A stretch of 64,000 nt of DNA from Egibacteraceae bacterium (GCA_030446775.1 JAUJMQ010000007.1:5569-69568); one strand, 5' to 3'. Counted from the stretch's first letter, positions 8,601-56,118 are shown. Numbers and translations: made by a program. Notes: generated from the letters alone by a model not told the origin.

Positions 8601-10060
8601 TCGGCCAGCAGGCGCTCCAGCAGTGCGGGCTCGACCTCGACGCCGAGCTCTGCGGCCGGCGCCGCGATGGCGCGGCTGAGAGCGGGACCGTGCAGCGGTG
8701 TGACCTCGAACCGCTCGCCCTCCGTCAGCGGCCACAGCGGCGACTCCATGAGTTCGGGATAGAAGTCAGCGCGCATCGTGACCACGACGACGCACCGGCG
8801 GACCCGCCGCAAGCCACCCAGCGCCTCCAGGAACTCCGTCCGCTCGGTCCGGTCAGCCTGGGCGAACACCTCCTCGAGCTGATCGACGACGAGCAGCAGC
8901 CGTCGCGCAGGCCCCGTCGCGAGCAACGCGTCGACGCGCTGGGCCGCAACCAGCGGGTCGGTCAAGGTGGTGGCGTCGCCCAGACCGAGGGTAGTTCCCA
9001 GAGCGGCGGGACCGGCGAAGACCAGCGAGGACTTGCCGGAGCCCGAGGGACCGACGATCAGCACGAAGCGGTGGTGGCGGAGGCGCTGAGCAAGGTCGGC
9101 GACCTCCTTCTCGCGGCCGCGGAAGAACCTCTTGTCGCCTTCGCCGAAGGTCGCCATCCCGGGGTAGGGGCAGTCGAGCTCCCCCGCGGGTGGGGCCACC
9201 GTGGGCGCGGTGATCGGTCCGGACGACGCCGGCTGCCAGTCGAGCTCGGGCGACTGCCGCAAAATCCGCTCGTACAGCCTCTGCAACTGCGGGCTGGGGT
9301 CGATGCCGAGCTCGTCGCCGAGTTCCCGCAGCGCCGCCTGGTAGGCGGCCAGGGCTTCGGCCTGCCGCTGACAGCGGTACAGGGCCAGCATGAGCTGGGC
9401 TCGCATCCGTTCCCGGAGGGGGTTTGCGCGAACCAGCTCCTGCAGGGGTCCCGCCATCTCGGCGTGATCGCCCAGCAGCAGCGCCGCCTCGGCGTGGTCC
9501 TCGATGGCGTCCAGTCGCAGGCTCTCCAGCCGGTCGACCTCGGCTGTCGCGAACGGTTCGTCGGCCAAGTCCGCCAGCGGCCTGCCACGCCACAGGCCGA
9601 GAGCCTCCGCCAGGCGTACTCGCGCCTCGCCTGCGGCCCCGCGCACCAGGGCGGCGCGTCCCTCGCTGACGAGCCGTTCGAACCGTCGCAGGTCGATCTG
9701 GTCGGGGTCGACGCGGAGGGCGTAGCCGGGACGGCGGGTCTCCAACACCAGCGCGCCTGCGGACCCGAGCGCGCGTCGCAGGTGCGACACGTAGGTGCGT
9801 ACGACCGCCTGTGCGGTCTCCGGAGGACTGCCTGCCCAGACCTCCTCGATGAGCCAGTCGCTGGCCACAACCGCCGGCGCATGCATGACCAGCAACGCGA
9901 GGACGGAGCGTTGCTTCACGCCACCAAGGTTCAGTAGGCGGCCTCCCGCCGCCACCTCTACCGGGCCCAGGAGCCGGAACTCCAGCCGGCCCGCCGCAAC
10001 GGTCGGTGGGACGTCCGACGTTGGGGTCAGCGAGGTCACGTCAACGCCTCCGCCTGCCAT
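5672..10060 (-). CDS. SARP (OmpR-type wHTH + BTAD) - STAND P-loop NTPase - 14x WD40 regulator, 1462 aa
   Basis: ATG 10060. The N-terminus LEFRLLGPVEV...RTYVSHLRRAL plus LWRGRPLADL...AYQAALRELGDELGIDPSPQL is a SARP/BTAD module. It is followed by CPYPGMATFGEGDKRFFRGREKE and Walker A GPSGSGKSS, with Walker B LLLVVDQLEE. I counted 14 WD40 units (GH..V..VAF.PDG..LASGS.D.T..LWD). The C-terminal tail is altered by the 55-bp duplication. Confidence 0.9.
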   Translation of the reverse strand: MAGGGVDVTSLTPTSDVPPTVAAGRLEFRLLGPVEVAAGGRLLNLGGVKQRSVLALLVMHAPAVVASDWLIEEVWAGSPPETAQAVVRTYVSHLRRALGSAGALVLETRRPGYALRVDPDQIDLRRFERLVSEGRAALVRGAAGEARVRLAEALGLWRGRPLADLADEPFATAEVDRLESLRLDAIEDHAEAALLLGDHAEMAGPLQELVRANPLRERMRAQLMLALYRCQRQAEALAAYQAALRELGDELGIDPSPQLQRLYERILRQSPELDWQPASSGPITAPTVAPPAGELDCPYPGMATFGEGDKRFFRGREKEVADLAQRLRHHRFVLIVGPSGSGKSSLVFAGPAALGTTLGLGDATTLTDPLVAAQRVDALLATGPARRLLLVVDQLEEVFAQADRTERTEFLEALGGLRRVRRCVVVVTMRADFYPELMESPLWPLTEGERFEVTPLHGPALSRAIAAPAAELGVEVEPALLERLLADAAQEPGVLPLVQETMVLLWERRDGHRLTLDSYESLGRDGVSGLAVALATKADATLAELPPAEREVARRILLRLVQVGDGRDDTRRQQPVEHLRAAADDPRLFDRTLRHLAASRLLTLSAGEGDLGPRVDLAHEALIAGWPTLGRWIEDDRESLRVQRQIAEDSHDWHALGRDPGSLYRGARLAAAISWYDQHVGELTALECDFLEASREAAAVELSEARRQAAQRLRTARRMRRLATGFAVLLVLSLVAGSQAVVWSRRAGFQASVATDRYLAARAVDELADRLDRSLLLALESLRHRNHVEGYSALLAGLDRSRAIRAFLNGHAGRAPAVAFDAGGTLLATGSDHGTVFLWEVDGGQRLGEPLAGHTGPVEAVAFTPEGSTLLSGSLDGTIRSWDVRARRESREPLRGHVGAVRTIAVHPDGGVLASGGDDGSVILWDLAAGRPSGEPLAGLDTPVTSVAFSPDGRLVAAAGAGGVILVWDVQTGRRHGSPLTGHTGPVRTVAFAPDGRTIASGGDDGTIRLWNVSDGTALGAPLFGDDDRIRSVTYRPDGRMLAAGTDSSRVVLWDLQTRAQVEPSLDGHGGPVRSVAFAPDGRTLASGSNDGTVVLWDTVAPSGLLRPLGGHADWVRDVVFSSDGTLVSGAQDGSLRVWDPEGGRAGSRRLRGHEAPVSGVTLTPDQQRVVSWAEDGSVVLQHFRGRRDSRPVALPGDRPLVSGALSPDGGTLATVDDKGAIVLRDIPSGRPRGGPLRGHEGPVLAVAFSPDGARLASAGDDRTVRLWDVTTGGPIGAPLRAHDLAVRTLDFSPDGRVLASGGNDGRIYVWDLESGRPLGEPLTSHDGPIFALAFSPDGTTFASGSLDRTIILWDAASRVRIGEPLAGHESVIRTVAYRPDGRALASGAEDQRIILWDLDRESWRRRACTVANRNLTVSEWNSLVGAQRPYARSCPVGVELPRRRAAPVRPQLPRRRIAAAG
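5699..5808. repeat. Perfect 55-bp tandem duplication (2 copies) inside the 3-prime end of the SARP-STAND-WD40 gene
   Basis: 5699-5753 and 5754-5808 are identical (gggcagctgcgggcgtacgggcgctgcgcgccgacgagggagttccactccgaca). Confidence 0.95.
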
Positions 10061-10297
10061 CAGCTCCCCATGGCTGACGGTCGCGGCAGGGTATGCGGAC
10101 GACTTTCGGCTGACCACGGATCGGCGGGGACGACCCGCGCGGTTGAGCGCAGAGAGCCTGCCCCGCCGTGTCACCGCGCAGTGGGCGCACGCTCGCGGCG
10201 ACGCGCTCGTCCAAGACCCCCGACTTTCGGCTCGAGCGTCCCGGCGGCCGTGGACCCCTTGCCCGGTCTGCGGCCTTTGGTGGCCTCCTCCACGCCG

Positions 10298-10330
10298 CTT
10301 CAACACCGGCTCTGCGGTCGTTCAACGCGC
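10298..10330 (+). promoter_or_regulatory. Three 11-nt direct-repeat units (cTTCAacaccg / gctctgcggtc / GTTCAacgcgc), PHO-box/SARP-type candidate operator
   Basis: The site lies in the divergent region between the SARP-STAND gene (start 10060) and the NHL gene (start 10454). It shares an extended module (10264-10330) with the phoD upstream region. Confidence 0.4.
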
Positions 10331-27780: not shown

Positions 27781-28698
27781 GTGCGGGCGCTGCTGATCCA
27801 CAACCCCAACGCGACGACGACGACACCGGCGGTGACCGACGTCATCGCACGCGCGCTGTCAGCCGAGCTCAAGCTCGACGTCGAGGCGACGAAACGGCGC
27901 GACCATGCGAGTTTCCTGGCCGCGGCAGCGGTGGACGACGGCTACGAGGTCGTGCTCGCACTGGGCGGCGACGGGACCGCCAACGAGGTGCTGCAGGGGC
28001 TGGCGGGTACCGGCGCGCGGCTGGCGGTCATCCCCGGCGGCTCGACGAACGTCTGGGCGCGCAGCCTGGGGCTGCCCAACGACGCGGTCGAGGCCACCTC
28101 GGTGCTGCTGCGCCTGCTGCGCAACCGCTGCGAGCGCGTCGTCAACCTCGGCACCGCCAACGGGCGCTACTTCGGGTTCACGGCGGGCTACGGCTACGAC
28201 GCGGAGGTCGTGCGCTACGTCGAGCACCGCTTCCGGCTGAAGCGCGCGGTGCGCCAGGCCTCCTTCCTGTACTGCGCGGCGGCCGCCTACGCGGCAGGCG
28301 CACGGGGTCGCCGCTGGGCGCGCGTGGAGATCTCGACGACCGTCGACGGGCACCCCACGCCCGACACGCTGCGCTCGGCGGTGTGCTGCAACTCCAACCC
28401 CTGGACGTTCCTGGGCCCCTGGCCCGCGCAGCTGTGCCCCGGCGCCGACCTGGACAAGCGCCTGGACGTCACGGGCTTCACCCGCCTGAACCCGATGTCC
28501 ATCGCACGGGTCGCCAGGACGACGTTGACGTCGGCGGGGGTGGGACGGCTGCGGTCGGTGCGGACCTGGCACGACCACGCGGCCTACGACCTGCGCAGCG
28601 ACACCCCCCTGGCGCTGCAGGTCGACGGTGACTTCGTCGGGGAGACGGCCGCCGTCGCGCTGCGCAGCGTCCCCGACGCCCTCGCCGTCGTCGCCTAG
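27781..28698 (+). CDS. Diacylglycerol/lipid kinase family protein (DAGK catalytic domain)
   Basis: GTG start. Motifs: LIHNPNA, VVLALGGDGTANEV, VIPGGSTNVWAR. Confidence 0.8.
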   Translation: MRALLIHNPNATTTTPAVTDVIARALSAELKLDVEATKRRDHASFLAAAAVDDGYEVVLALGGDGTANEVLQGLAGTGARLAVIPGGSTNVWARSLGLPNDAVEATSVLLRLLRNRCERVVNLGTANGRYFGFTAGYGYDAEVVRYVEHRFRLKRAVRQASFLYCAAAAYAAGARGRRWARVEISTTVDGHPTPDTLRSAVCCNSNPWTFLGPWPAQLCPGADLDKRLDVTGFTRLNPMSIARVARTTLTSAGVGRLRSVRTWHDHAAYDLRSDTPLALQVDGDFVGETAAVALRSVPDALAVVA

Positions 28699-28819
28699 GA
28701 CGCACCTCAAACGCCGGGCGGCTCGCGTCCAACGACTCCCTGCGGGAGACAGGCCCCGAGGACGCACCTCAAACGCCGGGCGGCTTTCGTCCAACGACTC
28801 CCTCCGGGAGACAGGCTCC
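28698..28819 (+). repeat. Two head-to-tail copies (62-nt period) of a ~58-nt two-hairpin intergenic repeat element
   Basis: Copy 1 (from 28698): GGACGCacctcaaacgccgggcggctcGCGTCCaacgaCTCCCtgcGGGAGacagg. Copy 2 (from 28760) has stem GGACG/CGTCC and loop tcc. The element starts on the last base of the TAG stop of the kinase gene. Confidence 0.85.
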
Positions 28820-28968
28820 AACGTTTTCCGCGCGGGAAAGCAGGGGAACGGAGCCCCCGTACAGAAGACCAAGGCGGGCCCCCGGCGCGAGACCCCATCG
28901 AACCAATTCGGCCGCACCCCTAGACGTCGCCGGAACGCGACGTATAGAGTCCGACGACGTACGCGGCT

Positions 28969-28984
28969 TGTGACCGGCTTCACA
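28969..28984. promoter_or_regulatory. Perfect CRP/FNR-family binding site TGTGAccggctTCACA upstream of whiB1
   Basis: The sequence matches TGTGA-N6-TCACA exactly and lies 136-151 nt upstream of ATG 29120. Confidence 0.6.
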
Positions 28985-29119
28985 TATCGGTCCGGCCGAG
29001 CGACCGGCGCGCCGTGACCCGGCGGCCGTGCGACTCCCGCCCCTTGCGAGGGCCGCTGGCATGCGCTCCAGACGCGCGGACCGGCCCTGCGGCACAGCGA
29101 CGAAAGCGAGTAGAAATTC

Positions 29120-29371
29120 ATGGACTGGCGTCAGCAGGCTGCGTGCCTGGACACCGACCCTGAGCTGTTCTTTCCGGTCGGCACCACCGGCCCCGCCCTG
29201 GAGCAGGTGGAGCGCGCCAAGGCCGTGTGCCGCGAGTGCGAGGTAATCGACTCCTGCCTGGAGTGGGCCCTCGACACGAACCAGGACGCGGGGGTCTGGG
29301 GTGGCATGAGCGAGGACGAGCGCCGCACCCTGCGGCGCAGCCGCCAGCGCCGCCGCCGCATGGCCAGCTGA
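29120..29371 (+). CDS. whiB1: WhiB-family Fe-S transcription factor (WhiB1-like)
   Basis: MDWRQQAACLDTDPELFFP...AKAVCRECEVIDSCLEWAL..GVWGG carries four Cys, the GVWGG turn and a basic tail. It is adjacent to pdtaS, as in M. tuberculosis Rv3219/Rv3220c. Confidence 0.9.
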   Translation: MDWRQQAACLDTDPELFFPVGTTGPALEQVERAKAVCRECEVIDSCLEWALDTNQDAGVWGGMSEDERRTLRRSRQRRRRMAS

Positions 29372-29485: not shown

Positions 29486-30952
29486 TCACGGCAGCGGCAC
29501 GACGAGCTGCACGGTCGTCCCCGCGGGCACCGGCGGGGCCGTGAGCGTGCCGCCGAGCTCGCTCTCGACGAGCGTGCGGGCGATCTGCAGGCCCAGGTTG
29601 GCCACCGAGTCCAGCGTGGCCCCGGGTGGCAGGCCCACACCGTCGTCGCTGACGGTCACCGACAGCGTCTCCGGCTCGCAGGCGAACCGCAGGCCCACCG
29701 TCCCTCCCCGCGCGGCCCCCGCCTCAGCGGCTCCCGGGAAGGCGTGCTCGACGCAGTTCTGCAGCAGCTCGGTGATGACGAGCGCCAGCGGCGTGGCCAC
29801 GTCCGCCGGCAGGTCGCCCGGCTCCCCGTCGATCTCGAAGCGCACGGGCACGTCGGGGTCGGTGAGGCCGTCGCCGAGCATCTCCACGATCCGCCTGGCG
29901 ACCTTGAGGAAGTCCACGCGCTGGCGCGACTCCTGGCTCAGCGTCTCGTGCACGAGCGCGATCGACGAGATCCGCCGGACGCTCTCGGCCAGCGCGTCCC
30001 GGGCCTCGGCCGACTGCAGGCGCCGCCCCTGCAGCCGCAACAGGGACGCGACGGTCTGCAGGTTGTTCTTCACCCGGTGGTGGATCTCGCGGATCGTGGC
30101 GTCCTTGAGCCGCAGTGCACGCTCGTGGCGGCGCAGCTCGGTGATCTCCCGCACGAGCAGCAGCCCCCCGATGACGTCGTCGTGGCCGATCAGCGGCAGG
30201 AGTCGTCGCATGACCACGGCGCCCTGACGCTCGACCTCGGTCACGACCGGCTCCCCCGATCGCAGGGCCGCGGTGAGCTCGGCGTGACCCAGGTCGAACA
30301 TCGACAGGTGCTGGCCCACGTACTGCTCGAGGCTGCCCAGCCGGCGGTAGGCCGAGATCGCGTTCGGCGAGGCGAACGTCACTGTCCCCTCGGCGTCCAC
30401 GCGCATGATCCCGTCACCGACCCGCGGGGAGAGCTCCCGCTCCTCGGGCTGCCCGCCGCCATACGGGAACGTGCCGTCGGCGAGCATCTGGGCCAGCTCT
30501 CCGGCCGACTGCAGGTAGGTCAGCTCCAGCTGCGACGGTGACCGCGCGGTGGCGACGTTCGCCTCGCGGGTGACGACCGCGACCACCTCGCCGCGGAAGT
30601 GGACGGGGATCGCCTCCTCACGGACGGGGACACCGGTGGACCAGTCGGGGTCGGCGTCGCGGATGACCCGCTGCTCGGCCATCGCCCGTCCCACCATCGG
30701 GCGGTCGGTGACCGGGAACGCCTGACCGACGAGGTCCTCGGAGTAGATCGTCTGGGCGGTGTACGGCCGCATCTGGCCGACGCACAGGTAGGTCGCCTTT
30801 GCGTCGGGCAGCGTGTGCCCGACGAACAGCAGCAGGTCGGCGAAGGACAGGTCGGCCAGGATCTGCCAGTCGTCGAGCAGCAGGCGGAGGTGGTCGACGG
30901 TGTCGGCCGGCAGGCCGGCCCGCTCAAGCAGGAGCTCTTCGAGCACGGGCAT
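29486..30952 (-). CDS. pdtaS: PdtaS-type GAF-PAS sensor histidine kinase
   Basis: The N-terminal GAF/PAS region is followed by the H box REIHHRVKNNLQTVASLLRLQ and an HATPase domain (LVITELLQNCVEHAF, DDGVGLP). Confidence 0.85.
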   Translation of the reverse strand: MPVLEELLLERAGLPADTVDHLRLLLDDWQILADLSFADLLLFVGHTLPDAKATYLCVGQMRPYTAQTIYSEDLVGQAFPVTDRPMVGRAMAEQRVIRDADPDWSTGVPVREEAIPVHFRGEVVAVVTREANVATARSPSQLELTYLQSAGELAQMLADGTFPYGGGQPEERELSPRVGDGIMRVDAEGTVTFASPNAISAYRRLGSLEQYVGQHLSMFDLGHAELTAALRSGEPVVTEVERQGAVVMRRLLPLIGHDDVIGGLLLVREITELRRHERALRLKDATIREIHHRVKNNLQTVASLLRLQGRRLQSAEARDALAESVRRISSIALVHETLSQESRQRVDFLKVARRIVEMLGDGLTDPDVPVRFEIDGEPGDLPADVATPLALVITELLQNCVEHAFPGAAEAGAARGGTVGLRFACEPETLSVTVSDDGVGLPPGATLDSVANLGLQIARTLVESELGGTLTAPPVPAGTTVQLVVPLP

Positions 30953-30973
30953 CGGGCGGCGCCTCCTGCTGGC

Positions 30974-31222
30974 CTACGCCGGAGCGGCGAGGGTGTCGGG
31001 GTTGCTGCCGTCGTCGAGCACGACGAGCACGTCGCCCTCGGAGATCACGTCGGCGACGTCGACGTTGACGGCCGCGACCTTCCCGTCGGCGGGCGCGAGC
31101 ACGGGGATCTCCATCTTCATAGACTCGACGACCAGCAGCGTCTGTCCCGCGGCGACATGGGCGCCGGGGATCACGGCGACGCTCACGACGTTCGCGACCA
31201 GCTGGGCGGTGACCTCGACCAT
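30974..31222 (-). CDS. Biotin/lipoyl-attachment domain protein (TB7.3-like)
   Basis: 82 aa with the biotinyl-lysine motif VVESMKMEIPV. GAGGAGA lies upstream of the ATG. Confidence 0.85.
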   Translation of the reverse strand: MVEVTAQLVANVVSVAVIPGAHVAAGQTLLVVESMKMEIPVLAPADGKVAAVNVDVADVISEGDVLVVLDDGSNPDTLAAPA

Positions 31223-31288
31223 CGTCTCCTCGCCGGGCCCGGGACGCGGAGCCTACCGGCGGCGTCCCCCGGGTCGCCGGGCAGCCGG

Positions 31289-31612
31289 TCAGCGGCCGAG
31301 GAAGCGCTCCAGGCCCTTGATGGGACCCACCTCGCGCATCCGCGAGAACGCGCGGGCCTCGATCTTCTTGACCTCCGGGATGGTCATGCCCAGCCGATCG
31401 GCGACCTCGCCGGGCTTGGCGGGGTTGCCGTCGACCAGGCCCATCCGCAGCTCCACCACCCGCCGCTCGATGTCGGGCAGCCGGCGCAGGACCCCTGACA
31501 GCCTCTGGCGCAGCGCGGCCACGGCCGCGTCGTCGGGGTCGGCGTCACGGCCGCGCGCTGCGCCGGGCCGTGTGGGGCCTCGGTCGGCGGGGGAGGTCCC
31601 AGAGGCGCTCAT
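31289..31612 (-). CDS. Sigma-70 region-4-like HTH protein
   Basis: LPDIERRVVELRMGLVDGNPAKPGEVADRLGMTIPEVKKIEARAFSRMRE resembles sigma region 4.2 only. Confidence 0.7.
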   Translation of the reverse strand: MSASGTSPADRGPTRPGAARGRDADPDDAAVAALRQRLSGVLRRLPDIERRVVELRMGLVDGNPAKPGEVADRLGMTIPEVKKIEARAFSRMREVGPIKGLERFLGR

Positions 31613-31661
31613 GGCGCGACCATGCTACAGCCGGGAAGTTGCGGGCCTGGTGGCGGCCCTA

Positions 31662-31719
31662 GCACGCACCTCAAACGCCGGGCGGCTTACGTGCAACGAC
31701 TCCCTTCGGGAGACAGGTC
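31662..31719 (+). repeat. Third copy of the two-hairpin repeat element
   Basis: GCACGcacctcaaacgccgggcggcttaCGTGCaacgaCTCCCttcGGGAGacagg. Stem 1 carries a compensatory G-C to C-G change relative to the 28.7-kb copies. The element ends 15 nt before GTG 31734. Confidence 0.85.
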
Positions 31720-31733
31720 CTAGGCTCGCCGGT

Positions 31734-42606: not shown

Positions 42607-42813
42607 TCAGTGGTTCCGGCGGAAGAAGCCGATGATGCGCTTCCAGAAGACCCTGACGCCGAGGCTGGCCGCCATGGCGGCGCCGACGACGACCTGGAAG
42701 ATGAGGCTGCCCGAGCCGGGATCGATGTAGGCGTTCGCAGCGGGGACCACCAGGAGTGACAGGCACACCGTGAGCCAGACGACCCACGTCACGTACGAGC
42801 CGACCTTGCGCAT
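42607..42813 (-). CDS. Small membrane protein (68 aa) with AYIDPGSGS motif
   Basis: ATG 42813 follows GGGAG. The product has two hydrophobic segments flanking ANAYIDPGSGSLIFQ. Its stop is 2 nt before the methyltransferase ATG. Confidence 0.6.
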   Translation of the reverse strand: MRKVGSYVTWVVWLTVCLSLLVVPAANAYIDPGSGSLIFQVVVGAAMAASLGVRVFWKRIIGFFRRNH

Positions 42814-42915
42814 GAAGACTCCCACGACCACGACGGACGCTTACCGGAAGGGCAACACGAGGTTAACAGCCGCCGCACGGGCGTGACGGTGGCCGACCTG
42901 CCCTGTCCGCGCCGG

Positions 42916-42973
42916 GGCTGTCTCCCGAAGGGAGTCGTTGGACGCAAGCCCCCCGGCCTTTGAGGTGCGTGCC
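42916..42973 (-). repeat. Fourth copy of the two-hairpin repeat element (reverse orientation)
   Basis: The reverse complement reads ggcACGCAcctcaaaggccggggggctTGCGTccaacgaCTCCCttcGGGAGacagcc. It lies downstream, in the sense orientation, of the decayed sulfatase gene. Confidence 0.85.
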
Positions 42974-42996
42974 AGCCGTCGGCGACGGTGAGGGGG

Positions 42997-44808
42997 TCAG
43001 TCGCCGCCCCGGCCCGACGAGCAGGACCGCGACGTCGTTGCGGCCGTCGCGCAGCAGCCGCGGCGGGATCATGGCGCTGAACTCGCGCTGGCCGCCGCCG
43101 CCGGGCTCCGCGCGCGTGACCGCCGCGACGGTCCCGTTCACGGCGACGGCCAACACGGGCGACGCGCCCGCGGTGACGCCGCGCACCACCCCGACGAGAT
43201 GGGCGGCGGGCAGGACCGGCGACGAGACATCCACGTCGGCGTAGGCCTGCGGGTGGCGCAAGGCGACCGACATGCCTGACGACGTAGCCGTCGTCGCCAC
43301 AGCGGGACGCCGCCCGAGCAGGTCGGCGGTGGCCCGGCGGGGCCAGACGGTAGGGGTCGCCCGTGCCGCCGGGACCGCCGAACAGCGCGAGCTTGCGGTC
43401 CACGGCCGCGCCGACCTGCGACCCGCCGGCGTCCATGCGCAGTTCCGCGCCCTCCTGTCGGTGATGCGTTTGGACGTCCGCGGGGCGGCCGACAGGTCGA
43501 GGGCCGAGCGTCCGTCAGCCCCGCGGGCGCCGTCGCGCCGAGCACGTCGAGCACGGTGGGGAGGACGTCCACGGTCTCCACCGGCAGGTCCGACGCGCGA
43601 CCGTCGCGCTGGCCGGGAGCCTTGACGAGCAGGGCACCGCGCCGATCTCACCGAACGTCTCGCGCGTGGCAACGCGCAGTGCCGTGCCCGGCGTGAAGCT
43701 GACGCCGTGGTCGGCCGCGACGACGACGAGCGAGCGGTCGTACAGGCCGCGCTGTTCGAGCTGGTCCAGCAGCTCGCCGAGCAGCCGGTCGACGAGTTGG
43801 ACCTGCACGAGGTGGCGCTGGTAGCCCTGCGCCGCCTGCCACACCGAGTCGGTCCAGCGGCGGTCGCGGTAGCCCGGCAGCTCGCCACCGGGATACCGCC
43901 TGCCGTCGGCGGTGTAGCGCCACGGCCGGTGCGGCAGCAGCGAGTGGATGGCGTGCAGGGTAGGGCGCGGACCCGGCCGTATCCCACGCACGAACTGGCG
44001 GAAGTCGGCGACGAGGTTGTCGTCCTTGGCCGTGCGAAAGCCGTCGAGGAAGGCCTCGCGCTTGCCCTTCCGGGGCGGCCTCCCGGCGGAACCGCTGCTG
44101 GCCGGCGCCGCCACTGTCCGGTGTCGATGGCCTCCTCGCCCTCGAAGTCGCGCCAGCCCTCGTCGAGCGGCGGCAGGCCGGCCGCCAGGTCGGCTGGCAT
44201 CACGAGATGCGACCCGATGACGAGGATGTCGGCGGCCAGGCTGCGCAGGCGCCTGGCGGCCGGCTCACGGTCGGTGGTGCGGCAACGGCCGTGGGGCACA
44301 GGTGGGTGACCGGCCCGCGACGTGCATGTCGTAGGTGCCGGCCAGCAGGAGAACAGGTTCGTCGGGTGGTCAGCGGCGATGGGCAGCTCGTCGCGCGCGG
44401 TGTAGCGGCCGCTGAGCAGCGCGGGCAGCGCGTCCATGGTCGACGTGTGCACCGTGGTGGCGTTGCGGAAGAACGTGGCGTCGGCGGCCAGCCGCGCGAA
44501 CGCGCAGGGTAGGTGGCCGCGTCGACCTGCCCGTCGCCGTCGAGCAGCGACGCCAGCGGCAGCTCGTCGAAGACGACGACCACGACCGGCGGCGCATCCG
44601 GACCCACGGCCACGGCTCCGGCGGTCGCCGGGGGCAAGACCAGGGCCCGGGCGGGGCTGGCCAGCAGGAACGTCGCGGCGACGACGGGCGCGGCGGCTGC
44701 GGCGAGGTTGAGCAACCGGCGCAGCGTCGCGCTGCGCCGGTAGCCGTCGCCGTGGCGACGCCCACCGCGGCCGCGATGGCGAGCGCCACCCCTCCGGCGA
44801 AATTTCAC
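42997..44808 (-). pseudogene. Second alkaline-phosphatase-superfamily (sulfatase-like) gene, heavily frame-broken
   Basis: Pieces lie in three frames: VVVVFDELPLASLLDGDGQVD, FFRNATTVHTSTMDALPALLSGRY, HSLLPHRPWRY, LYDRSLVVVAADHGVSF, VETVDVLPTVLDVLG, LAVAVNGTVAAVTRAEPGGGGQREFSAMIPPRLLRDGRNDVAVLLV. The 3-prime end is uncertain (candidate TGA 42997-42999; the raw ORF runs to 42863 through the repeat). Confidence 0.65.
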
Positions 44809-45180
44809 CAGCCCCGCCGACCCATCACCACGAGCACGAACGTCGCGGTCAGGACGGCGATCATCATCGCATGCAGGCTCGCACCGATGACGCGGTGCAC
44901 CAGCCGGCCCAGCAGGACCAGCGCGGCGGCGGCAGCAGGCGCTTGGGCATCAGGCCCACCGCGAGCAGCACCAGCTCTGCGGGGTCCACGTCACGTGGGC
45001 GACGAAGAACGGCGTTGCGGCCGAGCAGGTCCAGCAGCGGCTGCGCCACCGCCAGCGCGGTGAGGCCCACGAGCGACAGCACGACGTCGAGGGCCGACAC
45101 CCCGCAGACACCGTCGAACGCTGTCGTCCCGCCTCCGGCGAGCCGGTCACCGCCGCCGCGTCTGCAACCGGCGTGCTCAT
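44805..45180 (-). pseudogene. Frame-broken small polytopic membrane protein, GTGA-coupled to the decayed sulfatase gene
   Basis: ATG 45180. Hydrophobic pieces lie in different frames: ALDVVLSLVGLTALAVAQPLLDLLGRNAV, AELVLLAVGLMP, HAMMIAVLTATFVLVVMG. Confidence 0.4.
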
Positions 45181-45204
45181 GCGTCACCTCACCCGCCGGG
45201 CGGT

Positions 45205-48088
45205 TCATGCGCCGTGGCAGCGCTTGTACTTCTGACCCGAGCCGCAGGGGCAGGGGTCGTTGCGCCCACCTTGTCGGTGTTGCGCACCGTCTGCTGGGCG
45301 GACCTGGCGGCGGCGCCGTTGCCGGACGGGGCGGATCCGCCGGCGGAGCCGGTGGCGGTCGCGGCACCCCCAGGGTGTAGGTCGAGCCGCCGCCGTGGCT
45401 GACGGCGGTCCCCTCGGTGACCGCCGAGGTGTAGACAGCTGGGACGACATGGGCGCCCGCGGCTCGTCGCGCAGGGCGGGCCGCGCGACCTTGGCCGCTC
45501 CTGCCTGCTCGCGCGTGCCCGACGCTCCCGCTCGGCCTCGGCCTCAACCTCGGCCGCTTCCTCCGCCGCGGCGGCGGCCTCGTCGGGCTCGGGCTCGATG
45601 TGCACGGGAAGGTTGAAGAAGTATCCCGTCGACTCGGCCTTGATGTGGGCCATCATCTCGCCGAAGGCCTCGTAGGCCTCGCGCTGGTACTCCACGAGCG
45701 GGTCGCGCTGCCCGACGGCGCGCAGCCCGATGCCCTCGCGGAGGTGGTCCATCTCGTACAGGTGCTCGCGCCACACCCGGTCGACCACCGACAGGATCAC
45801 GCGGCGCTCCACCTGCCGCAGGACCTCGGATGCGAGCTCGGCCTCGCGCCGCTCGTAGGCAGACAGCGCGTCGTCGAGGACCTGCTCGAGCAGCTGCTCA
45901 CGCGTGACCGCGTCGTCGGCGATCGCCTTCCTGAGCGCGTCGCGGTCCAGGCCGACGGGATGGATCTGCTCCAGCGCCACCCACAGCTCGTCGAGGTCCC
46001 ACTCCTCGGGGAAGACCCCTTCAGGGGCGTAGGTGTCGACGATCGCGCGGAACGTCTCGTCGATGAAGTCCTCGGCGTACTCGGCCACCTTGTCGTCGGG
46101 CCCCGAGCACCGTCGAGCGCTGGGCGTAGATGACCTCACGCTGCTTGTTCATGACGTCGTCGTACTTCAGGACGTTCTTGCGGATCTCGAAGTTGCGTGC
46201 CTCCCTCCTGCGCCTGCGCGCGGGCGACGGCGCGCGAGACCATCTTGTGCTCGATCGGCATGTCCTCGGGCAGCTTCAGCCGCGTCATGATCGACTCGAC
46301 CGCGCTGGCGTTGAACAGCCGCATGAGGTCGTCCTCGAGCGACAGGAAGAAGCGCGACTCGCCCGGGTCGCCCTGGCGGCCCGACCGCCCGCGCAGCTGG
46401 TTGTCGATGCGCCGTGACTCGTGGCGCTCGGTGCCCAGGACGTACAGGCCACCGGCGGACCGCACCTGGTCGCCCTCGGCCTGGACCTGCGCGGCGTAGC
46501 GCGGCAGCGCCTCGGCGACGGCGGCGGCGTAGGCCTCCGGCTCCTCGGCAGGGTCGTGGGAACGGCGCGCCTCGGTCTCGGCCAGCGACTCGGCGTTGCC
46601 GCCCAGGACGATGTCGACGCCGCGGCCGGCCATGTTCGTCGCGACGGTCACCGCGCCGACGCGGCCGGCCTGGGCGACGATCTCGGCCTCCTTGAAGTGG
46701 TTCTTGGCGTTGAGGACCTCGTGGGGGATCCCCCGGCGGGTGAGCATCCCCGACAGCCGCTCGGACTTCTCGATCGACACGGTGCCGACGAGGACCGGCT
46801 GCCCGGCCTCGTGCCGGGCGACGATGTCGGCGGCGACCGCCTCGTACTTGGCCGCCTCCGTCTTGTAGATCTGGTCGGCGTGGTCGGCGCGGATGGGCGG
46901 GCGGTTCGTGGGGATCTGCACGACCCCGATGTCGTAGATGTGGGCGAACTCCGACTCCTCGGTCTTGGCCGTGCCGGTCATGCCCGACAGCTTGTCGTAG
47001 AGGCGGAAGTAGTTCTGCAGCGTGATCGTGGCGAGGGTCTGGTTCTCCTCCTTGATCCGCACACCCTCCTTGGCCTCGATCGCCTGGTGCAGCCCCTCGG
47101 AGTAGCGGCGGCCGTGCAGGGTGCGGCCGGTGAACTCGTCGACGATGAGGACCTCGCCGTCGGACACCATGTACTCGCGGTCGCGCAGGTACAGCTCCTT
47201 GGCGCGGATGGCGTTCTGCAGGTGGTGGATGAGCGGGGTGTTGACGCTCTCGTAGAGGTTCTCGACGCCGAGCAGCTGCTCGACGCGGGCGACGCCGTCC
47301 TCGGTCACCGCGACGGTGCGCTTGCCCTCGTCGATCTCGTAGTGGACGTCCTTGTCTAGGCGGGGGACGACCCGCCGCGCGAAGACGCTGTACCACTCGG
47401 TCGCCTGGTCGGCGGGGCCGGAGATGATCAGCGGGGTGCGTGCCTCGTCGACGAGGATCGAGTCGACCTCGTCGACGATCGCGTAGTGGTGGCCGCGCTG
47501 GACCTTCTCCGGCGACGACAGGACCATGTGGTCGCGCAGAAAGTCGAAGCCGAACTCGTTGTTGGTCCCGTGGGTGATGTCCGCGGCGTAGGCCTTGCGC
47601 TTGTCGACCTTGCCCTGCTGGGACGTGATCAGCCCGAGGGACAGGCCCAGGAACCGGTGGACGGGGCCCATCCACTCGGCGTCGCGGCTGGCCAGGTAGG
47701 GGTTGACGGTGACGACGTGCACGCCCTCGCCGGCCAGGGCGTTGAGGTAGACCGGCATCGTGGAGGTCAGCGTCTTGCCCTCACCCGTGCGCATCTCGGC
47801 GATGTCGCCCTGGTGCATCGCGGCGCCGCCGAGGACCTGGACGTCGTAGGGGCGCTGGCCCAGCACGCGCGAGGCGGTCTCGCGCACGGTGGCGAACGCC
47901 TCGGGCAGCAGGTCGTCGAGCGTCTCACCGTCGCCCAGCCGCCGCTTGAACTCGTCGGTGCGGGCGCGCAGCTGCTCGTCGGACAGGTCGGCGACCCCCT
48001 CCCCGGCGGCGTTCACCTCGGTGACGAGCGCCTGCAGCTGCCTGAGGTGACGGCCCTCACCGAGCCGGAGGATCTTCTGCAGCACCAC
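45205..48088 (-). pseudogene. secA: Preprotein translocase ATPase SecA (secA1 context), at least 4 frame breaks; probably sequence errors
   Basis: N-terminal 650 aa: [11 protein letters not shown].., [38 protein letters not shown]. Then [23 protein letters not shown] is in a third frame. [11 protein letters not shown]...GQRDPLVEYQREAYEAF is in ORF 45189..46139. The zinc-finger end [20 protein letters not shown] is in ORF 45205..45450. The start is ambiguous (GTG 48085/48088 or TTG 48106). Confidence 0.9.
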
Positions 48089-51198: not shown

Positions 51199-51869
51199 CA
51201 GTGAGCCTCCTGCGCCATGCGGTCCAGCAGCGCATCGACGGTGTCGACGGCTTCGCGCTGGACTGCGAGATGCACCTGGTCGCCTGACTGCACCAGCATG
51301 TTCGCGACCGGAACGCGGGTGGTGCCGTCCCGGGTGACCGCGGCCAGGACGGCGCGCCCCGGGGTCGACAGCTGCGACGCCTTCGCGTCGCGCACGCCCG
51401 TCGGGATGGTGGCGGTCAGCAGCACGACGTCCTGCGCCCCCGGGCCGATCGAGCCCTCGACCCGGTTCCCCTCCGGCAGCAGCGTGCGCAGCACCGCGTC
51501 CGCGGTCCACTGCGCGGACGCGATGGTGGTGATGCCCAGCCGCTCGTAGATGGACGCCCGCTCCGGGTCGTAGATCCGCGCGACGACGCGCTCGACGGCG
51601 TAGCGCTCCTTGGCGGTGCGTGCCGAGACGATGTTGGAGTTGTCCCCGCTGGTGACGGCGACGAACGCCTGCGCGCGCTTGATCCCCGCCTCCTCCAGCG
51701 TGGGCCGGTCGAACACCACCCCTGGGAGGGCGCGGCCGGCGAAGTCCTTGCCGAGCCTGCGGAAGGCCGCGGGGTTCTTGTCGATGACGACGACGTCGTG
51801 ATCCTCGTCCGACAGCGTCTGGGCCAGCTGGGAACCGACCCGCCCACAACCGGCGATGATGACGTGCAC
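51198..51869 (-). CDS. trkA: TrkA-family potassium-uptake NAD-binding protein (second paralogue)
   Basis: GTG 51869 follows GGAGCCAAGGG. Product: VHVIIAGCGRVGSQLAQTL..., with a TrkA-C domain. Confidence 0.9.
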   Translation of the reverse strand: MHVIIAGCGRVGSQLAQTLSDEDHDVVVIDKNPAAFRRLGKDFAGRALPGVVFDRPTLEEAGIKRAQAFVAVTSGDNSNIVSARTAKERYAVERVVARIYDPERASIYERLGITTIASAQWTADAVLRTLLPEGNRVEGSIGPGAQDVVLLTATIPTGVRDAKASQLSTPGRAVLAAVTRDGTTRVPVANMLVQSGDQVHLAVQREAVDTVDALLDRMAQEAH

Positions 51870-51990
51870 CCCTTGGCTCCTGTGTCGGCGCGGGGCGGCC
51901 GGCAGGCGTGCTTGGCCCCTGCGCGGGCCTACGATACTGCCCGTCAGCGAGCGCCACGCACGGGCGGTCGGACAGAGCGAGGAGCGTTCG

Positions 51991-54303
51991 GTGACGGACC
52001 TGTCGACGCTGAAGCGTGTCGTCGTCGGGCGCCCCAAGGCCAGCCGGGAGCTCGGTCACACGCTGCTGCCCAAGTGGATGGCGCTGCCGGTCTTCTCCTC
52101 CGACCCGATGTCGTCGGTGGCGTACGCGACCGAGGAGATGATGCTGGTGCTGGCGCTCGCCGGCGCCGGCGCCTTCCGCCTCGTCGGGCCGCTGTCGCTG
52201 GCGGTCGCCACGCTGCTCGTGATCGTCATCATCAGCTACCGCCAGACGGTCCGCGCCTACCCGCGTGGCGGCGGCGCCTACATCGTGGCGCGGGAGAACC
52301 TCGGCGAGATCCCGGGGCTCGTCGCCGCGAGCGCGCTGCTCATCGACTACTCGCTCACCGTGGCGGTCTCGATCGCCGCGGGCGTCGCGGCGATCACGTC
52401 GGCGGCGTCGATCCTCGCCGAGCACAAGGTCTCGCTCGCGCTCGGCTTCGTCACCCTGGTCACCCTCGCCAACCTGCGCGGCGTCAAGGAGGCCGGGGTC
52501 GTCTTCGCGATCCCGACGTACACCTTCGTGGCGACGATCTACCTGCTCATCGCCACCGGGCTGCTGCGCTGCGTCGGCGGCTGCCCCCAGGCCGAGAGCG
52601 CCGGAACCGCCCTGGAGGTGGAGAGCGCGCTGGGGCTGTTCCTCGTGCTGAGGGCGTTCTCGTCGGGAGCCACCGCCCTGACCGGCGTCGAGGCGATCTC
52701 CGACGGGGTCGCCGCCTTTCGCTACCCCCAGAGCCGGAACGCGGCGGCCACCCTCGGGATCATGGGCGTCATCGCCGTGACGATGTTCCTGGGCATCAGC
52801 TACCTGGCGACCGCGACGAACGTCGTGGCGACCGAGGGCATGGAGCGCACCGTCGTCGCGCAGATCGCCGCGGCGGTGTTCGGCCAGGGGCCGCTGTTCT
52901 ACCTGGTCCAGGTCGTGACCGCGGCCATCCTCATCCTCGCGGCGAACACGGCCTACGCCGACTTCCCCCGGCTCGCCTCGATCCTGGCCGGTGACCGGTT
53001 CCTGCCGCGCCAGTTCCTCAGCCGCGGCGACCGCCTCGTGTTCAGCAACGGCGTGGTCGTGCTCGCCGTCAGCGCGAGCCTGCTGCTCGTGCTCTTCCAG
53101 GCCGAGGTCACCCGTCTGATCCAGCTGTACGTGGTCGGCGTGTTCACCTCGTTCACGTTGTCCCAGGCCGGGATGGTGCGCCGGCGCATCGCCCTGCGGG
53201 AGCCCCGCTGGCGGGAGGCGGCCATCGTCAGCGGCGTGGGGGCGTTCACGACGGGCGTGGTGCTCGTCGTCGTGTCGATCACGAAGTTCCGCGGTGGTGC
53301 CTGGATGGTGATCCTCGCGATCCCGCTCGTCGCGACCCTCATGCACCGGATCCACCGTCACTACGGTCAGGTGAGCCTGCAGCTGCGCGCGGACGTGACC
53401 ACGCGGCAGCCCGCACGGCCGTTGCACGCCGTCATCGTGCTCGACAAGATCGACGAGTCGGTCGCCCGGTCGCTGTCCTACGCCCGCGCCGTCAACGCCT
53501 CGTCGGTGAGCGCCTGCGTCGTGCCGTTGCCCGGCATCGACGTGGAGCGTGAGTGGGCCGCCTTCGCCCCCGACGTGCCGCTGACGGTGCTCGTCGCGTC
53601 CACTGACCCGCGCGCCGACGACGAGGTCGTCGCGCACCTGCAGCGCGAGCAGGGCGCCCATCCTCGGTCGTTCACGACCGCGATCGTGGCGGAGACGCTG
53701 TCGGAGAGCATGCTCGAAGTGGTGCGGCGGCACCGCCTCGCGGTGCGCATCAAGTCGGGACTGGTGCGCCAGGGCGTGGTCGTCGCCAATGTCACCGCGC
53801 CTGAGGTGCCCGGGCCGTTCGAGATCGAGGAGCCGGTCGAGCACCACGTCGTCGTGCTCGTGTCGGCGGTGAACAGCGCCACGATTCGCGCCCTGGCATA
53901 CGCCAGGAGCCTGCAGTCGACGTCCGTGCGAGCCCTGTCGGTCAACCTCGACACCGACCGCTCGACCGCGATCCTCCAGCAGTGGGACGACTGGGACCTC
54001 GAGGTGCCCCTGGAGATCGTCGACAGCCCCTTCCGCAGCCTCAGCGACTCGGTCCAGGCCTACGTCCGCGACTTCGGGCCCGACGGCAGGCACACGGTGG
54101 TCACGTGCGTGCTGCCGGAGTTCGTCCTGCCCAAGCTCGTCCACCGCCCGCTGCACAACCAGACCGCCCTGCAGATCAAGGGCGCGCTGCTGCTCGCGCG
54201 CGGAGTGGTGGTGACGAGCGTGCCGATCCACCTCGACCTGGAAGCCGACAAGCGCGAGACGCAGGGCGCCGCCTCCCGGGGGCCCGAGCCGCCCGGCGCT
54301 TGA
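51991..54303 (+). CDS. APC-superfamily permease with a large C-terminal cytoplasmic domain
   Basis: GTG 51991 follows GAGGAG. About 12 TM segments (FSSDPMSSVAYATEE.., ALLIDYSLTVAVSIAAG..), then a soluble region of about 330 aa. The stop lies inside the first 28-nt repeat unit. Confidence 0.8.
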   Translation: MTDLSTLKRVVVGRPKASRELGHTLLPKWMALPVFSSDPMSSVAYATEEMMLVLALAGAGAFRLVGPLSLAVATLLVIVIISYRQTVRAYPRGGGAYIVARENLGEIPGLVAASALLIDYSLTVAVSIAAGVAAITSAASILAEHKVSLALGFVTLVTLANLRGVKEAGVVFAIPTYTFVATIYLLIATGLLRCVGGCPQAESAGTALEVESALGLFLVLRAFSSGATALTGVEAISDGVAAFRYPQSRNAAATLGIMGVIAVTMFLGISYLATATNVVATEGMERTVVAQIAAAVFGQGPLFYLVQVVTAAILILAANTAYADFPRLASILAGDRFLPRQFLSRGDRLVFSNGVVVLAVSASLLLVLFQAEVTRLIQLYVVGVFTSFTLSQAGMVRRRIALREPRWREAAIVSGVGAFTTGVVLVVVSITKFRGGAWMVILAIPLVATLMHRIHRHYGQVSLQLRADVTTRQPARPLHAVIVLDKIDESVARSLSYARAVNASSVSACVVPLPGIDVEREWAAFAPDVPLTVLVASTDPRADDEVVAHLQREQGAHPRSFTTAIVAETLSESMLEVVRRHRLAVRIKSGLVRQGVVVANVTAPEVPGPFEIEEPVEHHVVVLVSAVNSATIRALAYARSLQSTSVRALSVNLDTDRSTAILQQWDDWDLEVPLEIVDSPFRSLSDSVQAYVRDFGPDGRHTVVTCVLPEFVLPKLVHRPLHNQTALQIKGALLLARGVVVTSVPIHLDLEADKRETQGAASRGPEPPGA

Positions 54304-54373
54304 GGTGCAGGCCGAGCCGCCCGGCGCTTGAGGTGCAGGCCGAGCCGCCCGGCGCTTGAGGTGCAGGCCGAGC
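54283..54373 (-). repeat. 3.25 tandem copies of a 28-nt unit derived from the 5-prime half of the two-hairpin repeat element
   Basis: Units (g/c)ccgagccgcccggcgcttgaggtgcag lie at 54283-54310, 54311-54338 and 54339-54366, plus a partial unit. The reverse complement ctgcacctcaagcgccgggcggctcgg aligns to gcacctcaaacgccgggcggctcg of the element. Confidence 0.85.
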
Positions 54374-54377
54374 GACG

Positions 54378-56116: not shown

Positions 56117-56118
56117 GG

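What the first reader, a model, noticed from the sequence alone, without database searches (positions are those of the whole stretch)
28698..28819. Unannotated ~58-nt two-hairpin intergenic repeat family, five loci in 64 kb
The consensus G(G/C)ACGCACCTCAAACGCCGGGCGGCT..CGT(C/G)CAACGACTCCCT.CGGGAGACAGG occurs at four loci: 28698 and 28760 (tandem, 62-nt period), 31662, and in reverse orientation at 42916-42973. A derived form occurs at 54283-54373. Hairpin 1 shows one compensatory double change (GGACG/CGTCC in the 28.7-kb copies versus GCACG/CGTGC at 31.6 kb). Hairpin 2 keeps the CTCCC/GGGAG stem while its loop varies (tgc, tcc, ttc). Three loci sit in the sense orientation just after a stop codon; at 28698 the element overlaps the last base of the TAG. 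One copy ends 15 nt before a GTG start. This behaves like a REP/MITE-like or 3-prime-UTR structural RNA element. I do not recognise it as any named family.
Basis: seen in the sequence. Interest (0 to 1): 0.72.

Follow-up and report, generated by a model that had tools for sequence, protein, structure and literature searches.

The report
Tiny CTAG-targeted interspersed repeat family
A real family of about 58-base repeats in an uncultured Egibacteraceae actinobacterium looks like a miniature mobile element that inserts at the rare sequence CTAG, not a dedicated RNA element; this is an ordinary kind of bacterial repeat, with one odd, unexplained link to phage hairpins.

Summary
There are four full copies of 57-58 nt (28699, 28761, 31663 on +; 42971-42914 on -) and a 3.2 x 28-nt tandem array of the 21-nt core alone (54284-54373). 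A weak core-like relic lies at 45185.

The key new fact is that the 'TAG' in front of the copies is half of a CTAG target site, not a stop-codon signal. CTAG occurs 13 times in the window against about 152 expected, and 3 of those 13 flank the element. Copy 3 sits between two CTAGs. Four syntenic relatives carry a single empty CTAG at that exact spot, 5-11 nt before the DUF6183 start codon.

Copies in other Egibacteraceae MAGs are also flanked by (C)CTAG. They occur in both orientations relative to genes and are absent from close relatives.

Structure support is weak within the full copies: one compensatory pair, a score reached by 101 of 500 shuffles, and folding z-scores near 0. No Rfam family, terminator, terminal inverted repeats or nearby transposase was found.

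Best reading: a non-autonomous MITE/REP-like mobile repeat, a new member of a known kind. One point stays unexplained: the 17-19-nt core, closed by a covarying stem, recurs in multi-copy hairpins of uncultured phage contigs.

The parts
28695..28698 (+). CTAG at the left edge of copy 1. Its TAG (28696-28698) is the stop codon of the DAGK-family gene 27781-28698.
   Evidence: Relatives end the same protein at the same residue with TGA.
28699..28756 (+). Copy 1, full two-module element (core 28703-28723; second module 28730-28753).
28757..28760 (+). CGAG junction between copies 1 and 2, a degenerate CTAG.
28761..28817 (+). Copy 2, head-to-tail with copy 1 and 92% identical to it. It is followed by CCAA in place of CTAG.
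31659..31662 (+). Left CTAG of copy 3. It is not a gene's stop codon.
31663..31719 (+). Copy 3, 57 nt. It lies in the divergent region between the sigma70_r4 gene (31289-31612, -) and DUF6183 (GTG 31734, +).
31720..31723 (+). Right CTAG of copy 3. This is the ancestral CTAG, found unoccupied in relatives L132, L133, L142 and L143.
42914..42971 (-). Copy 4, in reverse orientation, with 2 core mismatches. Its flanks are CTGG / CCGG-like (decayed). It lies at the 3' end of a lineage-specific sulfatase-like ORF region and upstream of the small ORF 42607-42840 (-).
54284..54373 (-). Tandem array of 3.2 x 28 nt made of the core module only (CACCTCAAGCGCCGGGCGGCT plus a 7-nt spacer). It overlaps the last 20 nt, including the TGA, of the amino-acid-permease ORF 51856-54303 (+).
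   Evidence: (D12).
45185..45205 (+). Weak core-like relic (18/21). It is part of a 28-nt segment bounded by a 7-nt direct repeat (CGCATGA on the - strand) between the SecA stop and the next ATG. Its reverse strand places GAGGTG 5 nt before that ATG.
   Evidence: Absent from the same junction in relatives L150-L153.

Best explanation
The repeats are a family of miniature, non-coding, non-autonomous mobile elements (MITE/REP-like in the broad sense) of an Egibacteraceae lineage.

- Size and layout: a full element is 57-58 nt. It has a left module, a short variable stem closing the conserved 17-21-nt sequence (CACC)TCAARCGCCGGGYGGCT. It also has a lineage-specific right module ending in GAGACAGG(Y)C or GAGACACGCT.
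- Target: it integrates at the tetranucleotide CTAG, which then appears on both sides. This is either a CTAG/TA target-site duplication, or a CTAG target plus an element end that recreates it.
- Why copies hug genes: CTAG is about 12-fold depleted in this genome and survives mainly as C+TAG stop codons and in intergenic DNA. Copies therefore accumulate right at gene ends and in promoter regions, in either orientation.
- Arrays: the core module, or the whole unit, can also multiply locally into head-to-tail arrays with 28-30-nt and 62-nt periods.

Shown: repetition far beyond chance, the CTAG association, one precise empty-versus-filled site, patchy phylogenetic distribution, mixed orientation, and absence of terminal inverted repeats.

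Inferred: mobilisation in trans by an enzyme encoded elsewhere in the genome, with the conserved hairpin core as its recognition site. The enzyme class is not established. An IS630/IS5-type DDE transposase would fit the CTAG target. A single-strand HUH (Y1) enzyme, as for REP/RAYT or IS200/IS605, would fit the hairpin, the tiny size, the lack of inverted repeats and the head-to-tail arrays.

Side effects on neighbouring genes are likely incidental: new stop codons, altered C-termini, and a Shine-Dalgarno-like GAGGTG on the reverse strand.
For: 1. Copy number: 8 core matches against 0.00 expected, and 4 second-module matches against 0 expected.
2. CTAG depletion: 13 observed against about 152 expected from base composition. 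Three of the 13 abut the element.
3. Empty versus filled site: the window reads ...GGCC-CTAG-[57 nt]-CTAG-GCTCGCCGGT-GTG(DUF6183). Syntenic relatives read GATCG-CTAG-GCTCGCACGCG-GTG (L132, L133) and GGACCA-CTAG-CATCC-ATG (L142, L143), with no insert.
4. Copies elsewhere show the same flanks: L117 CCTAG...CCTAG; L061 CCTAG...CTAG, where the right CTAG is the TAG stop of a HisRS-like gene on the opposite strand; and L045, L075 and L020 with CCTAG on the left.
5. No copy was found in about 190 kb of syntenic or related Egibacteraceae/Euzebyales loci. These include another locus of MAG YX1bin5 (72% aa identity at the methyltransferase locus), which carries the element elsewhere, and a relative of YX2bin43 with 93% aa identity at the HisRS site.
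6. Orientation relative to genes is mixed.
7. The stem flanking the core varies between lineages yet pairs better within a sequence than across sequences: mean 4.9 vs 3.9 bp, 0 of 5000 permutations.
Against: - No terminal inverted repeats beyond chance, so the classical DDE-MITE definition is not met.
- No autonomous partner or transposase was seen in the window or next to any copy. Whole genomes could not be searched.
- Only one insertion has a clean orthologous empty site. At the HisRS site the relative's intergenic DNA is too diverged to define the breakpoint.
- At the DAGK site relatives have TGA, not TAG, so a CTAG must be assumed for the ancestor of this lineage.
- Left CTAGs are better preserved than right ones (7 of 9 vs 3 of 8 by my reading). 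A simple neutral duplication does not predict this.
- The core is conserved across genomes, and even in phage contigs, which suggests a function beyond selfish spread.
Confidence: 0.62

Rival explanations
1. Structured cis-acting RNA in 3' UTRs (terminator, stabiliser or processing site). The two hairpins would form in the mRNA just after the stop codon.
For: - Copies 1/2 follow the DAGK stop codon in sense orientation. L075 and probably L045 do too.
- Hairpin 2 (CTCCC/GGGAG) is kept in the four window copies and hairpin 1 shows one double change.
- Flanks of the core pair better than expected.
Against: - Copy 3 and L006 lie in divergent promoter regions. L061, L113 and L117 are antisense to the adjacent genes.
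- MFE z-scores on the element strand run from -1.05 to +0.63 for the full copies.
- 101 of 500 shuffles reach the observed covariation.
- No T-tail or terminator call.
- No Rfam hit even at E up to 10.
- The right-hand module is replaced by unrelated sequence in YX2bin43 copies.
Confidence: 0.1
2. A double-stranded DNA binding-site array for a host protein, such as a nucleoid-associated or regulatory factor. The conserved 21-bp core would be the site, spread by duplication and recombination rather than transposition.
For: - The core is far better conserved than its flanks, within and between genomes.
- It works in both orientations and is confined to intergenic DNA.
- Arrays have periods of 28-30 and 62 nt, roughly 3 and 6 helical turns.
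Against: - This does not explain the CTAG on both sides or the precise empty site.
- No palindromy or half-site structure is visible in the core.
- The family is absent from close relatives that keep the same genes. A regulon site should be conserved with its targets.
Confidence: 0.1
3. Translation-related module. The reverse strand carries a small GC hairpin plus UUUGAGGUG (Shine-Dalgarno-like), the forward strand CACCUC (identical to the anti-SD hexamer of 16S rRNA, from general knowledge). Copies would be retained because they tune initiation or coupling of the neighbouring gene.
For: - The relic at 45185 puts GAGGTG 5 nt before an ATG.
- The third, degenerate unit in L113 puts GAGGAG 9 nt before an ATG.
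- In at least 7 phage loci the reverse strand lies 10-13 nt upstream of an ATG.
Against: - None of the four full copies in the window has a start codon at the right distance on the reverse strand.
- Copies 1/2 and the 54.3-kb array have no downstream gene in that orientation.
- This reading explains neither the CTAG flanks nor the second module.
Confidence: 0.06
4. Chance similarity or an assembly artefact of a metagenome-assembled genome.
For: The source is a MAG contig (100% protein matches on an 88.7-kb NCBI contig).
Against: - 0 of 100 shuffles give even one core match.
- Copies differ from each other by 8-10% and have unique flanks.
- The same element occurs in independent assemblies: L045, L117 and the YX2bin43 loci.
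Confidence: 0.01

Closest known systems
MITEs derived from IS630/Tc1-mariner elements (or from IS5-family elements). IS630 prefers TA within 5'-CTAG-3' and duplicates TA (Tenzen & Ohtsubo 1991, listed in the references of PMC2170065). That IS5 duplicates a 4-bp YTAR site comes from memory.
   Same: Short, non-coding, multi-copy and intergenic. Insertion is at CTAG with the site repeated on both sides. Distribution is patchy. Copies can change gene ends.
   Different: No terminal inverted repeats. At 46-58 nt it is shorter than typical bacterial MITEs. Its most conserved part is an internal hairpin core rather than the termini. No cognate IS was found.
REP/BIME elements mobilised by RAYT (Y1 HUH) transposases, and IS200/IS605-derived palindrome-associated elements (from memory).
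   Same: A tiny extragenic hairpin is preceded by a conserved tetranucleotide (GTAG in REPs, CTAG here). There are no inverted terminal repeats. Copies cluster, often just after genes, in both orientations.
   Different: REP hairpins have long stems and small loops; here the stem is 3-6 bp around a conserved core of about 21 nt. REPs are not flanked by duplicated target sites. The two hairpins here are unlike each other, whereas IS200/IS605 ends carry similar hairpins. No RAYT/TnpA gene was seen.
MIRU, mycobacterial interspersed repetitive units (from memory: Supply et al. 1997).
   Same: An actinobacterial family of 40-100-nt units, sometimes tandem, in intergenic regions, touching the stop or start codons of neighbouring genes.
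   Different: MIRUs are co-oriented with transcription and carry small ORFs that overlap the flanking stop and start codons. Here orientation is mixed and the codon overlap is explained by CTAG.
Multi-copy regulatory hairpins of phage genomes: start-associated sequences SAS/ESAS of Cluster K mycobacteriophages (PMC3203893) and PeSL cassettes of T4-type phages (from memory).
   Same: The phage contigs that share the core carry 2-3 related hairpins each, several placed a fixed short distance upstream of start codons.
   Different: I could not verify any sequence similarity to SAS/ESAS. This comparison concerns the phage relatives of the core, not the chromosomal repeat itself.

Membership tests
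MITE (DDE-transposase dependent, IS630/IS5 type) | Short non-coding element present in multiple dispersed copies | tested here: met
   Four full copies plus one array in 64 kb, and copies in at least 3 other assemblies.
MITE (DDE-transposase dependent, IS630/IS5 type) | Target-site duplication flanking each insertion, with an empty site in relatives | tested here: met
   CTAG flanks both sides of copy 3, L117 and L061. A single CTAG sits at the orthologous site in L132, L133, L142 and L143. Older copies have decayed flanks.
MITE (DDE-transposase dependent, IS630/IS5 type) | Terminal inverted repeats matching those of an autonomous IS | tested here: not met
   The best match between the left 16 nt and the reverse-complemented right 16 nt is 5-8 of 16. 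This is reached by 370-1840 of 2000 shuffles.
MITE (DDE-transposase dependent, IS630/IS5 type) | Cognate transposase-encoding element in the same genome | not testable with these tools
   None in the window (Pfam on neighbours).
REP / RAYT system | Imperfect palindrome directly preceded by a conserved tetranucleotide | tested here: inconclusive
   (C)TAG directly precedes a stem of 3-6 bp in most copies. However, the stem is short, the 'loop' is a conserved 17-21-mer, and the tetranucleotide is CTAG rather than GTAG.
REP / RAYT system | RAYT gene flanked by inverted REPs in the same genome | not testable with these tools
No Y1 transposase lies among the neighbours scanned.
IS200/IS605-derived miniature element | Similar subterminal hairpins at both ends; insertion 3' of a fixed tetra/pentanucleotide without duplication | tested here: inconclusive
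   A fixed CTAG on the left is met, and the right end also reads CTAG. That pattern cannot be told apart from a duplication. The two hairpins are dissimilar.
Any Rfam RNA family | Covariance-model match at or near the gathering score | tested here: not met
   No gathering-level hit in the window or in 20 related loci. Only noise appeared at E up to 10.
Intrinsic (rho-independent) terminator | GC-rich hairpin followed by a T-run, downstream of a gene in sense orientation | tested here: not met
   No terminator-like site at the 28.7-kb or 31.7-kb copies. Orientation is mixed.
MIRU-like intercistronic repeat | Uniform orientation with transcription, and small ORFs overlapping the flanking stop and start codons | tested here: not met
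   Mixed orientation and location in divergent and convergent intergenic regions.

The most novel reading that the evidence does not exclude
The conserved core (a variable, covarying stem closing TCAARCGCCGGGYGGCT) may be a previously undescribed nucleic-acid module shared across very different replicons. These are Egibacteraceae chromosomes (73% G+C), multi-copy intergenic hairpins of uncultured phage contigs (36-61% G+C, several just upstream of terminase small-subunit genes), and 205-nt repeats next to ssb/radC in an ICE- or plasmid-like contig. Under this reading it is the recognition hairpin of a widespread single-strand-DNA enzyme or RNA-binding factor, and the chromosomal repeat is one mobile carrier of it.
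Probability: 0.15. Interest if true: 0.65.

Novelty: new member of a known kind. Interest (0 to 1): 0.35.

Why it matters
If the reading is right, this is an unnamed, very small mobile repeat of a poorly studied actinobacterial family.

- It shows how strict CTAG targeting in a CTAG-starved, high-G+C genome drives insertions onto stop codons and promoter regions. The results are new stop codons, altered C-termini and changed spacing between divergent promoters.
- For annotation, it warns against reading 'element right after the stop codon' as evidence of a 3'-UTR RNA.
- The lack of inverted repeats, together with a conserved hairpin core shared with phage hairpins, leaves open a single-strand (HUH-type) or otherwise unusual mobilisation route. 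That is the only part that could interest a specialist beyond routine repeat cataloguing.

Tried and rejected
Searches that found nothing:
- Rfam at gathering and at permissive thresholds on the window, the related loci and the phage loci.
- blastn of the element or of the phage/ICE-like motif against plasmids, cultured phages and E. coli genomes; no meaningful match.
- Full-text search for the core sequence, and for Egibacter repeats.
- Viral scan for the second module: 0 hits.

Features tested and not found:
- Terminator and promoter scans.
- Terminal inverted repeats, at chance level.
- A transposase in the lineage-specific 2.3-kb segment beside copy 4. It is a sulfatase-like paralogue region with frame changes.

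Limits of the collection searches:
- The genome-collection scan used too loose a pattern. Only the Egibacteraceae MAG loci were informative.
- Fetching the source contig failed.
- A second empty site at the HisRS locus: the 93%-identical relative lacks the element, but its intergenic DNA is too diverged to define a breakpoint.

Ideas considered by inspection of the sequence and dropped:
- TAG read-through or a PYLIS-like signal. Copy 3's TAG is not in a gene.
- A sigma-54 promoter. GG is absent at -24 in the actinobacterial copies, and to my knowledge Actinobacteria lack RpoN.
- An ECF-type promoter on the reverse strand. The spacing is variable and the spacer is conserved.
- A tRNA T-arm mimic. 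The loop does not fit.
- An integron attC. There are no R''/R' core sites.

Full report
**What is there.** The window is 70-78% G+C. Reading the coordinates confirms four full copies of a repeat of about 58 nt and a tandem array of its first half.
- The 21-nt core CACCTCAAACGCCGGGCGGCT has 8 matches at up to 3 mismatches, against 0.00 expected from shuffles.
- The second module CAACGACTCCCNNNGGGAGACAGG has 4 matches against 0 expected.
- Copies are 90-92% identical to each other.
- The 54.3-kb locus is three identical 28-nt units of the core only, on the minus strand (family D12).
- An HMM built from ten copies finds nothing further in the window except a weak relic at 45185.
- Rfam has no match at gathering or at permissive thresholds.

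**Gene context.** Pfam and codon-position G+C give the following layout.
- Copies 1/2: DAGK-family kinase 27781-28698 (+, stop TAG), then copies 1 and 2, then WhiB 29120-29371 (+).
- Copy 3: PdtaS, a biotin-lipoyl protein and a sigma70_r4 protein lie on the minus strand (29486-31612). Copy 3 follows, then DUF6183 from GTG 31734 (+). Copy 3 is therefore in a divergent promoter region, and the TAG in front of it ends no gene.
- Copy 4 (-) lies between a lineage-specific sulfatase-like region and a small ORF upstream of a methyltransferase-like gene.
- The 28-nt array lies in a convergent intergenic region. It overlaps the last 20 nt of an amino-acid-permease ORF, whose TGA is the TTGAGG of repeat unit 1. 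The true downstream gene is 54454-55101 (-).

**The TAG is half of a CTAG.**
- Almost every copy, here and elsewhere, is directly preceded by (C)CTAG.
- CTAG is extremely rare in the window: 13 sites against about 152 expected from base composition. Three of the 13 abut the element.
- Copy 3 is bracketed by CTAG on both sides.
- The source protein set matches an 88.7-kb NCBI contig. The nearest relatives, at 72-75% amino-acid identity, are Egibacteraceae/Euzebyales MAGs.
- Their syntenic loci keep the gene order PBP-DAGK-(GDPD)-WhiB-PdtaS-...-sigma70_r4-DUF6183.
- At the sigma70_r4/DUF6183 junction, L132 and L133 read GATCG-CTAG-GCTCGCACGCG-GTG. L142 and L143 read GGACCA-CTAG-CATCC-ATG. The window reads GGCC-CTAG-[57 nt]-CTAG-GCTCGCCGGT-GTG.

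This is a classical empty-versus-filled site. An ancestral CTAG 5-11 nt before the start codon received the element, and CTAG now flanks it on both sides.

**Copies elsewhere.**
It still recovered real copies in two Egibacteraceae MAGs: YX2bin43 (L006, L020, L061, L075) and YX1bin5 (L045).
- A strict metagenome scan gave only eight loci. Among them, L117 is a full element between CCTAG and CCTAG, and L113/L118 carry tandem core units.
- In L061 the element lies between convergent genes, and its right CTAG supplies the TAG stop of a HisRS-like gene on the opposite strand.
- YX2bin43 copies share the left module but have a different right module that still ends in GAGACACG(CT).
- About 190 kb of related loci contain no copy. 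These include another YX1bin5 locus and a contig whose HisRS is 93% identical to that of YX2bin43.

The family is therefore patchy and shows gain or loss between close relatives.

**Structure.**
- Folding energies of single full copies are ordinary, with z from -1.05 to +0.63 on the element strand.
- On six full copies, the two-hairpin model plus a 3-bp inner helix has 91.7% of cells paired. Only one pair changes on both sides, copy 4 breaks it, and 101 of 500 shuffles do as well.
- Across all 32 distinct core occurrences I collected, the flanks of the core do pair better with each other than with the flanks of other occurrences. The mean stem is 4.9 vs 3.9 bp, with 0 of 5000 permutations as good.
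- A short stem of variable sequence closing a conserved core is therefore a consistent feature. Whether it forms in RNA or in single-stranded DNA is unknown.

**Orientation and function.**
- Relative to neighbouring genes, copies are sense after a stop (window 1/2, L075, probably L045), antisense (L061, L113, L117), or in divergent regions (window 3, L006).
- No terminator-like or sigma-70-like sites were found at the 28.7-kb and 31.7-kb copies scanned.
- This argues against a dedicated strand-specific 3'-UTR element and for a DNA-level element that lands wherever a CTAG is tolerated.
- In a 73% G+C genome those places are chiefly C+TAG stop codons and intergenic DNA, which explains the apparent stop-codon association.

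**Mechanism.** CTAG targeting with the site repeated on both flanks is what IS630 does. It duplicates TA within CTAG (Tenzen & Ohtsubo 1991, listed in the references of PMC2170065). From memory, IS5-type elements duplicate a 4-bp YTAR site. Several features fit less well with a DDE transposase:
- The element has no terminal inverted repeats beyond chance.
- It is only 46-58 nt long.
- Its best-conserved part is an internal hairpin core.
- It forms head-to-tail arrays.

These features recall REP/RAYT and IS200/IS605-type single-strand elements. For those, a fixed tetranucleotide next to a hairpin is the cleavage or target site, and an element end that recreates the target would look like a duplication. 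No transposase of either kind lies near any copy examined, and whole genomes were out of reach. I therefore commit to 'non-autonomous CTAG-targeted mobile repeat' (confidence about 0.6) and leave the enzyme class open.

**Side observations that bear on function.**
- The weak relic at 45185 is a 28-nt segment bounded by a 7-nt direct repeat, between the SecA stop and the next ATG. It is absent from relatives, and its reverse strand gives GAGGTG 5 nt before the ATG.
- In L113 a degenerate third unit similarly provides GAGGAG before a start codon.
- The relic and copy 4 are in inverted orientation at the two ends of a 2.3-kb segment that relatives lack between SecA and the small ORF. I could not test whether they mobilised it.

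**The unexplained link to phages.**
- A viral-contig scan for CCTCAARCGCCGGGYGGCT found 12 contigs with 36-61% G+C.
- There the core is closed by stems that differ between lineages: CCCC/GGGG, ACACC/GGTGT, GCCC/GGGC, ATCC/GGGT. It is followed by TTTYAAAA.
- In at least 7 loci its reverse strand ends 10-13 nt before an ATG. This includes the terminase small-subunit gene of four related contigs.
- Another copy directly follows a gene's stop codon.
- An HMM of the phage form finds 2-3 related hairpins per contig, only some with this core.
- A 51% G+C contig with radC, an ECF-like sigma gene and ssb carries the core at the start of two 205-nt repeats.
- No Rfam family, cultured phage, plasmid or paper matches.
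- A few chance hits are expected for a 19-mer in a collection of this size. However, a multi-member hairpin family sharing the same two variable positions (A/G and C/T) as the actinobacterial copies is unlikely to be chance.

I cannot say whether this reflects common descent of a mobile hairpin module, a shared host factor, or convergence.

**Verdict.** The RNA half is not supported. This is a new, unnamed member of a well-known kind of bacterial repeat, of modest interest, with a minority possibility that its core is a broader, undescribed hairpin module.

Noticed in passing
L120-L131 (IMG/VR contigs), e.g. L131 6120-6157 (-) and 3203-3235 (-); L121 6101-6136, 3774-3798, 1568-1593: Uncultured phage contigs carry 2-3 copies each of an intergenic hairpin of the form ATCCCC-[insert]-GGGG-TTTYAAAA. 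A subset has the same 17-19-nt core as the window repeat. Several lie antisense 10-13 nt upstream of an ATG, including terminase small-subunit genes. No Rfam or literature match.
   Followed up: partly
L115 8733-9140 (metagenome contig Ga0206819_10257, 51% G+C): Two tandem units of about 205 nt each begin with the core hairpin. They lie between radC / an ECF-like sigma gene and an ssb-like gene, a layout like the leading region of an ICE or plasmid. As single-stranded DNA the + strand folds better than shuffles (z -2.3).
   Followed up: partly
window 42850-45190: This roughly 2.3-kb segment is absent from relatives, which have SecA, a small ORF and a methyltransferase directly adjacent. It holds a sulfatase-like paralogue whose coding phase shifts several times, so it is a pseudogene or has assembly frameshifts. 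It is bounded by the weak reverse core relic (45185) and copy 4 (42914-42971) in inverted orientation.
   Followed up: partly
window 28699-29119 versus L132 4467-5587, L138 10392-11373: Relatives carry a GDPD (glycerophosphodiester phosphodiesterase) gene on the opposite strand between DAGK and WhiB. The window lacks it and has copies 1/2 there instead. The DAGK stop is TAG here but TGA in the relatives.
   Followed up: no
whole window: CTAG is about 12-fold under-represented: 13 sites against about 152 expected from base composition.
   Followed up: yes
L142 12181-12444 and 14997-15143; L142 450-2700 (Egibacteraceae MAG GCA_050743125.1): A different Egibacteraceae genome has unrelated intergenic repeats that also start at CTAG (CTAGTGGTCCAAGCGGAAAG... 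followed by 33-nt tandem units). It also has four tandem units of about 640 nt, each with a small ORF of 85-97 aa.
   Followed up: no
window 5865-7389: Eight copies of a 109-nt unit at 129-nt spacing lie inside the long minus-strand ORF 5672-10321. This looks like a repeat-domain protein (43-residue period), unrelated to the finding.
   Followed up: no
window 54176-56197 (-): One minus-strand ORF runs through the 28-nt array. Codon-position G+C shows coding in that frame only above about 55050 and in another frame for 54454-55101. That means either two genes or a frameshift.
   Followed up: partly
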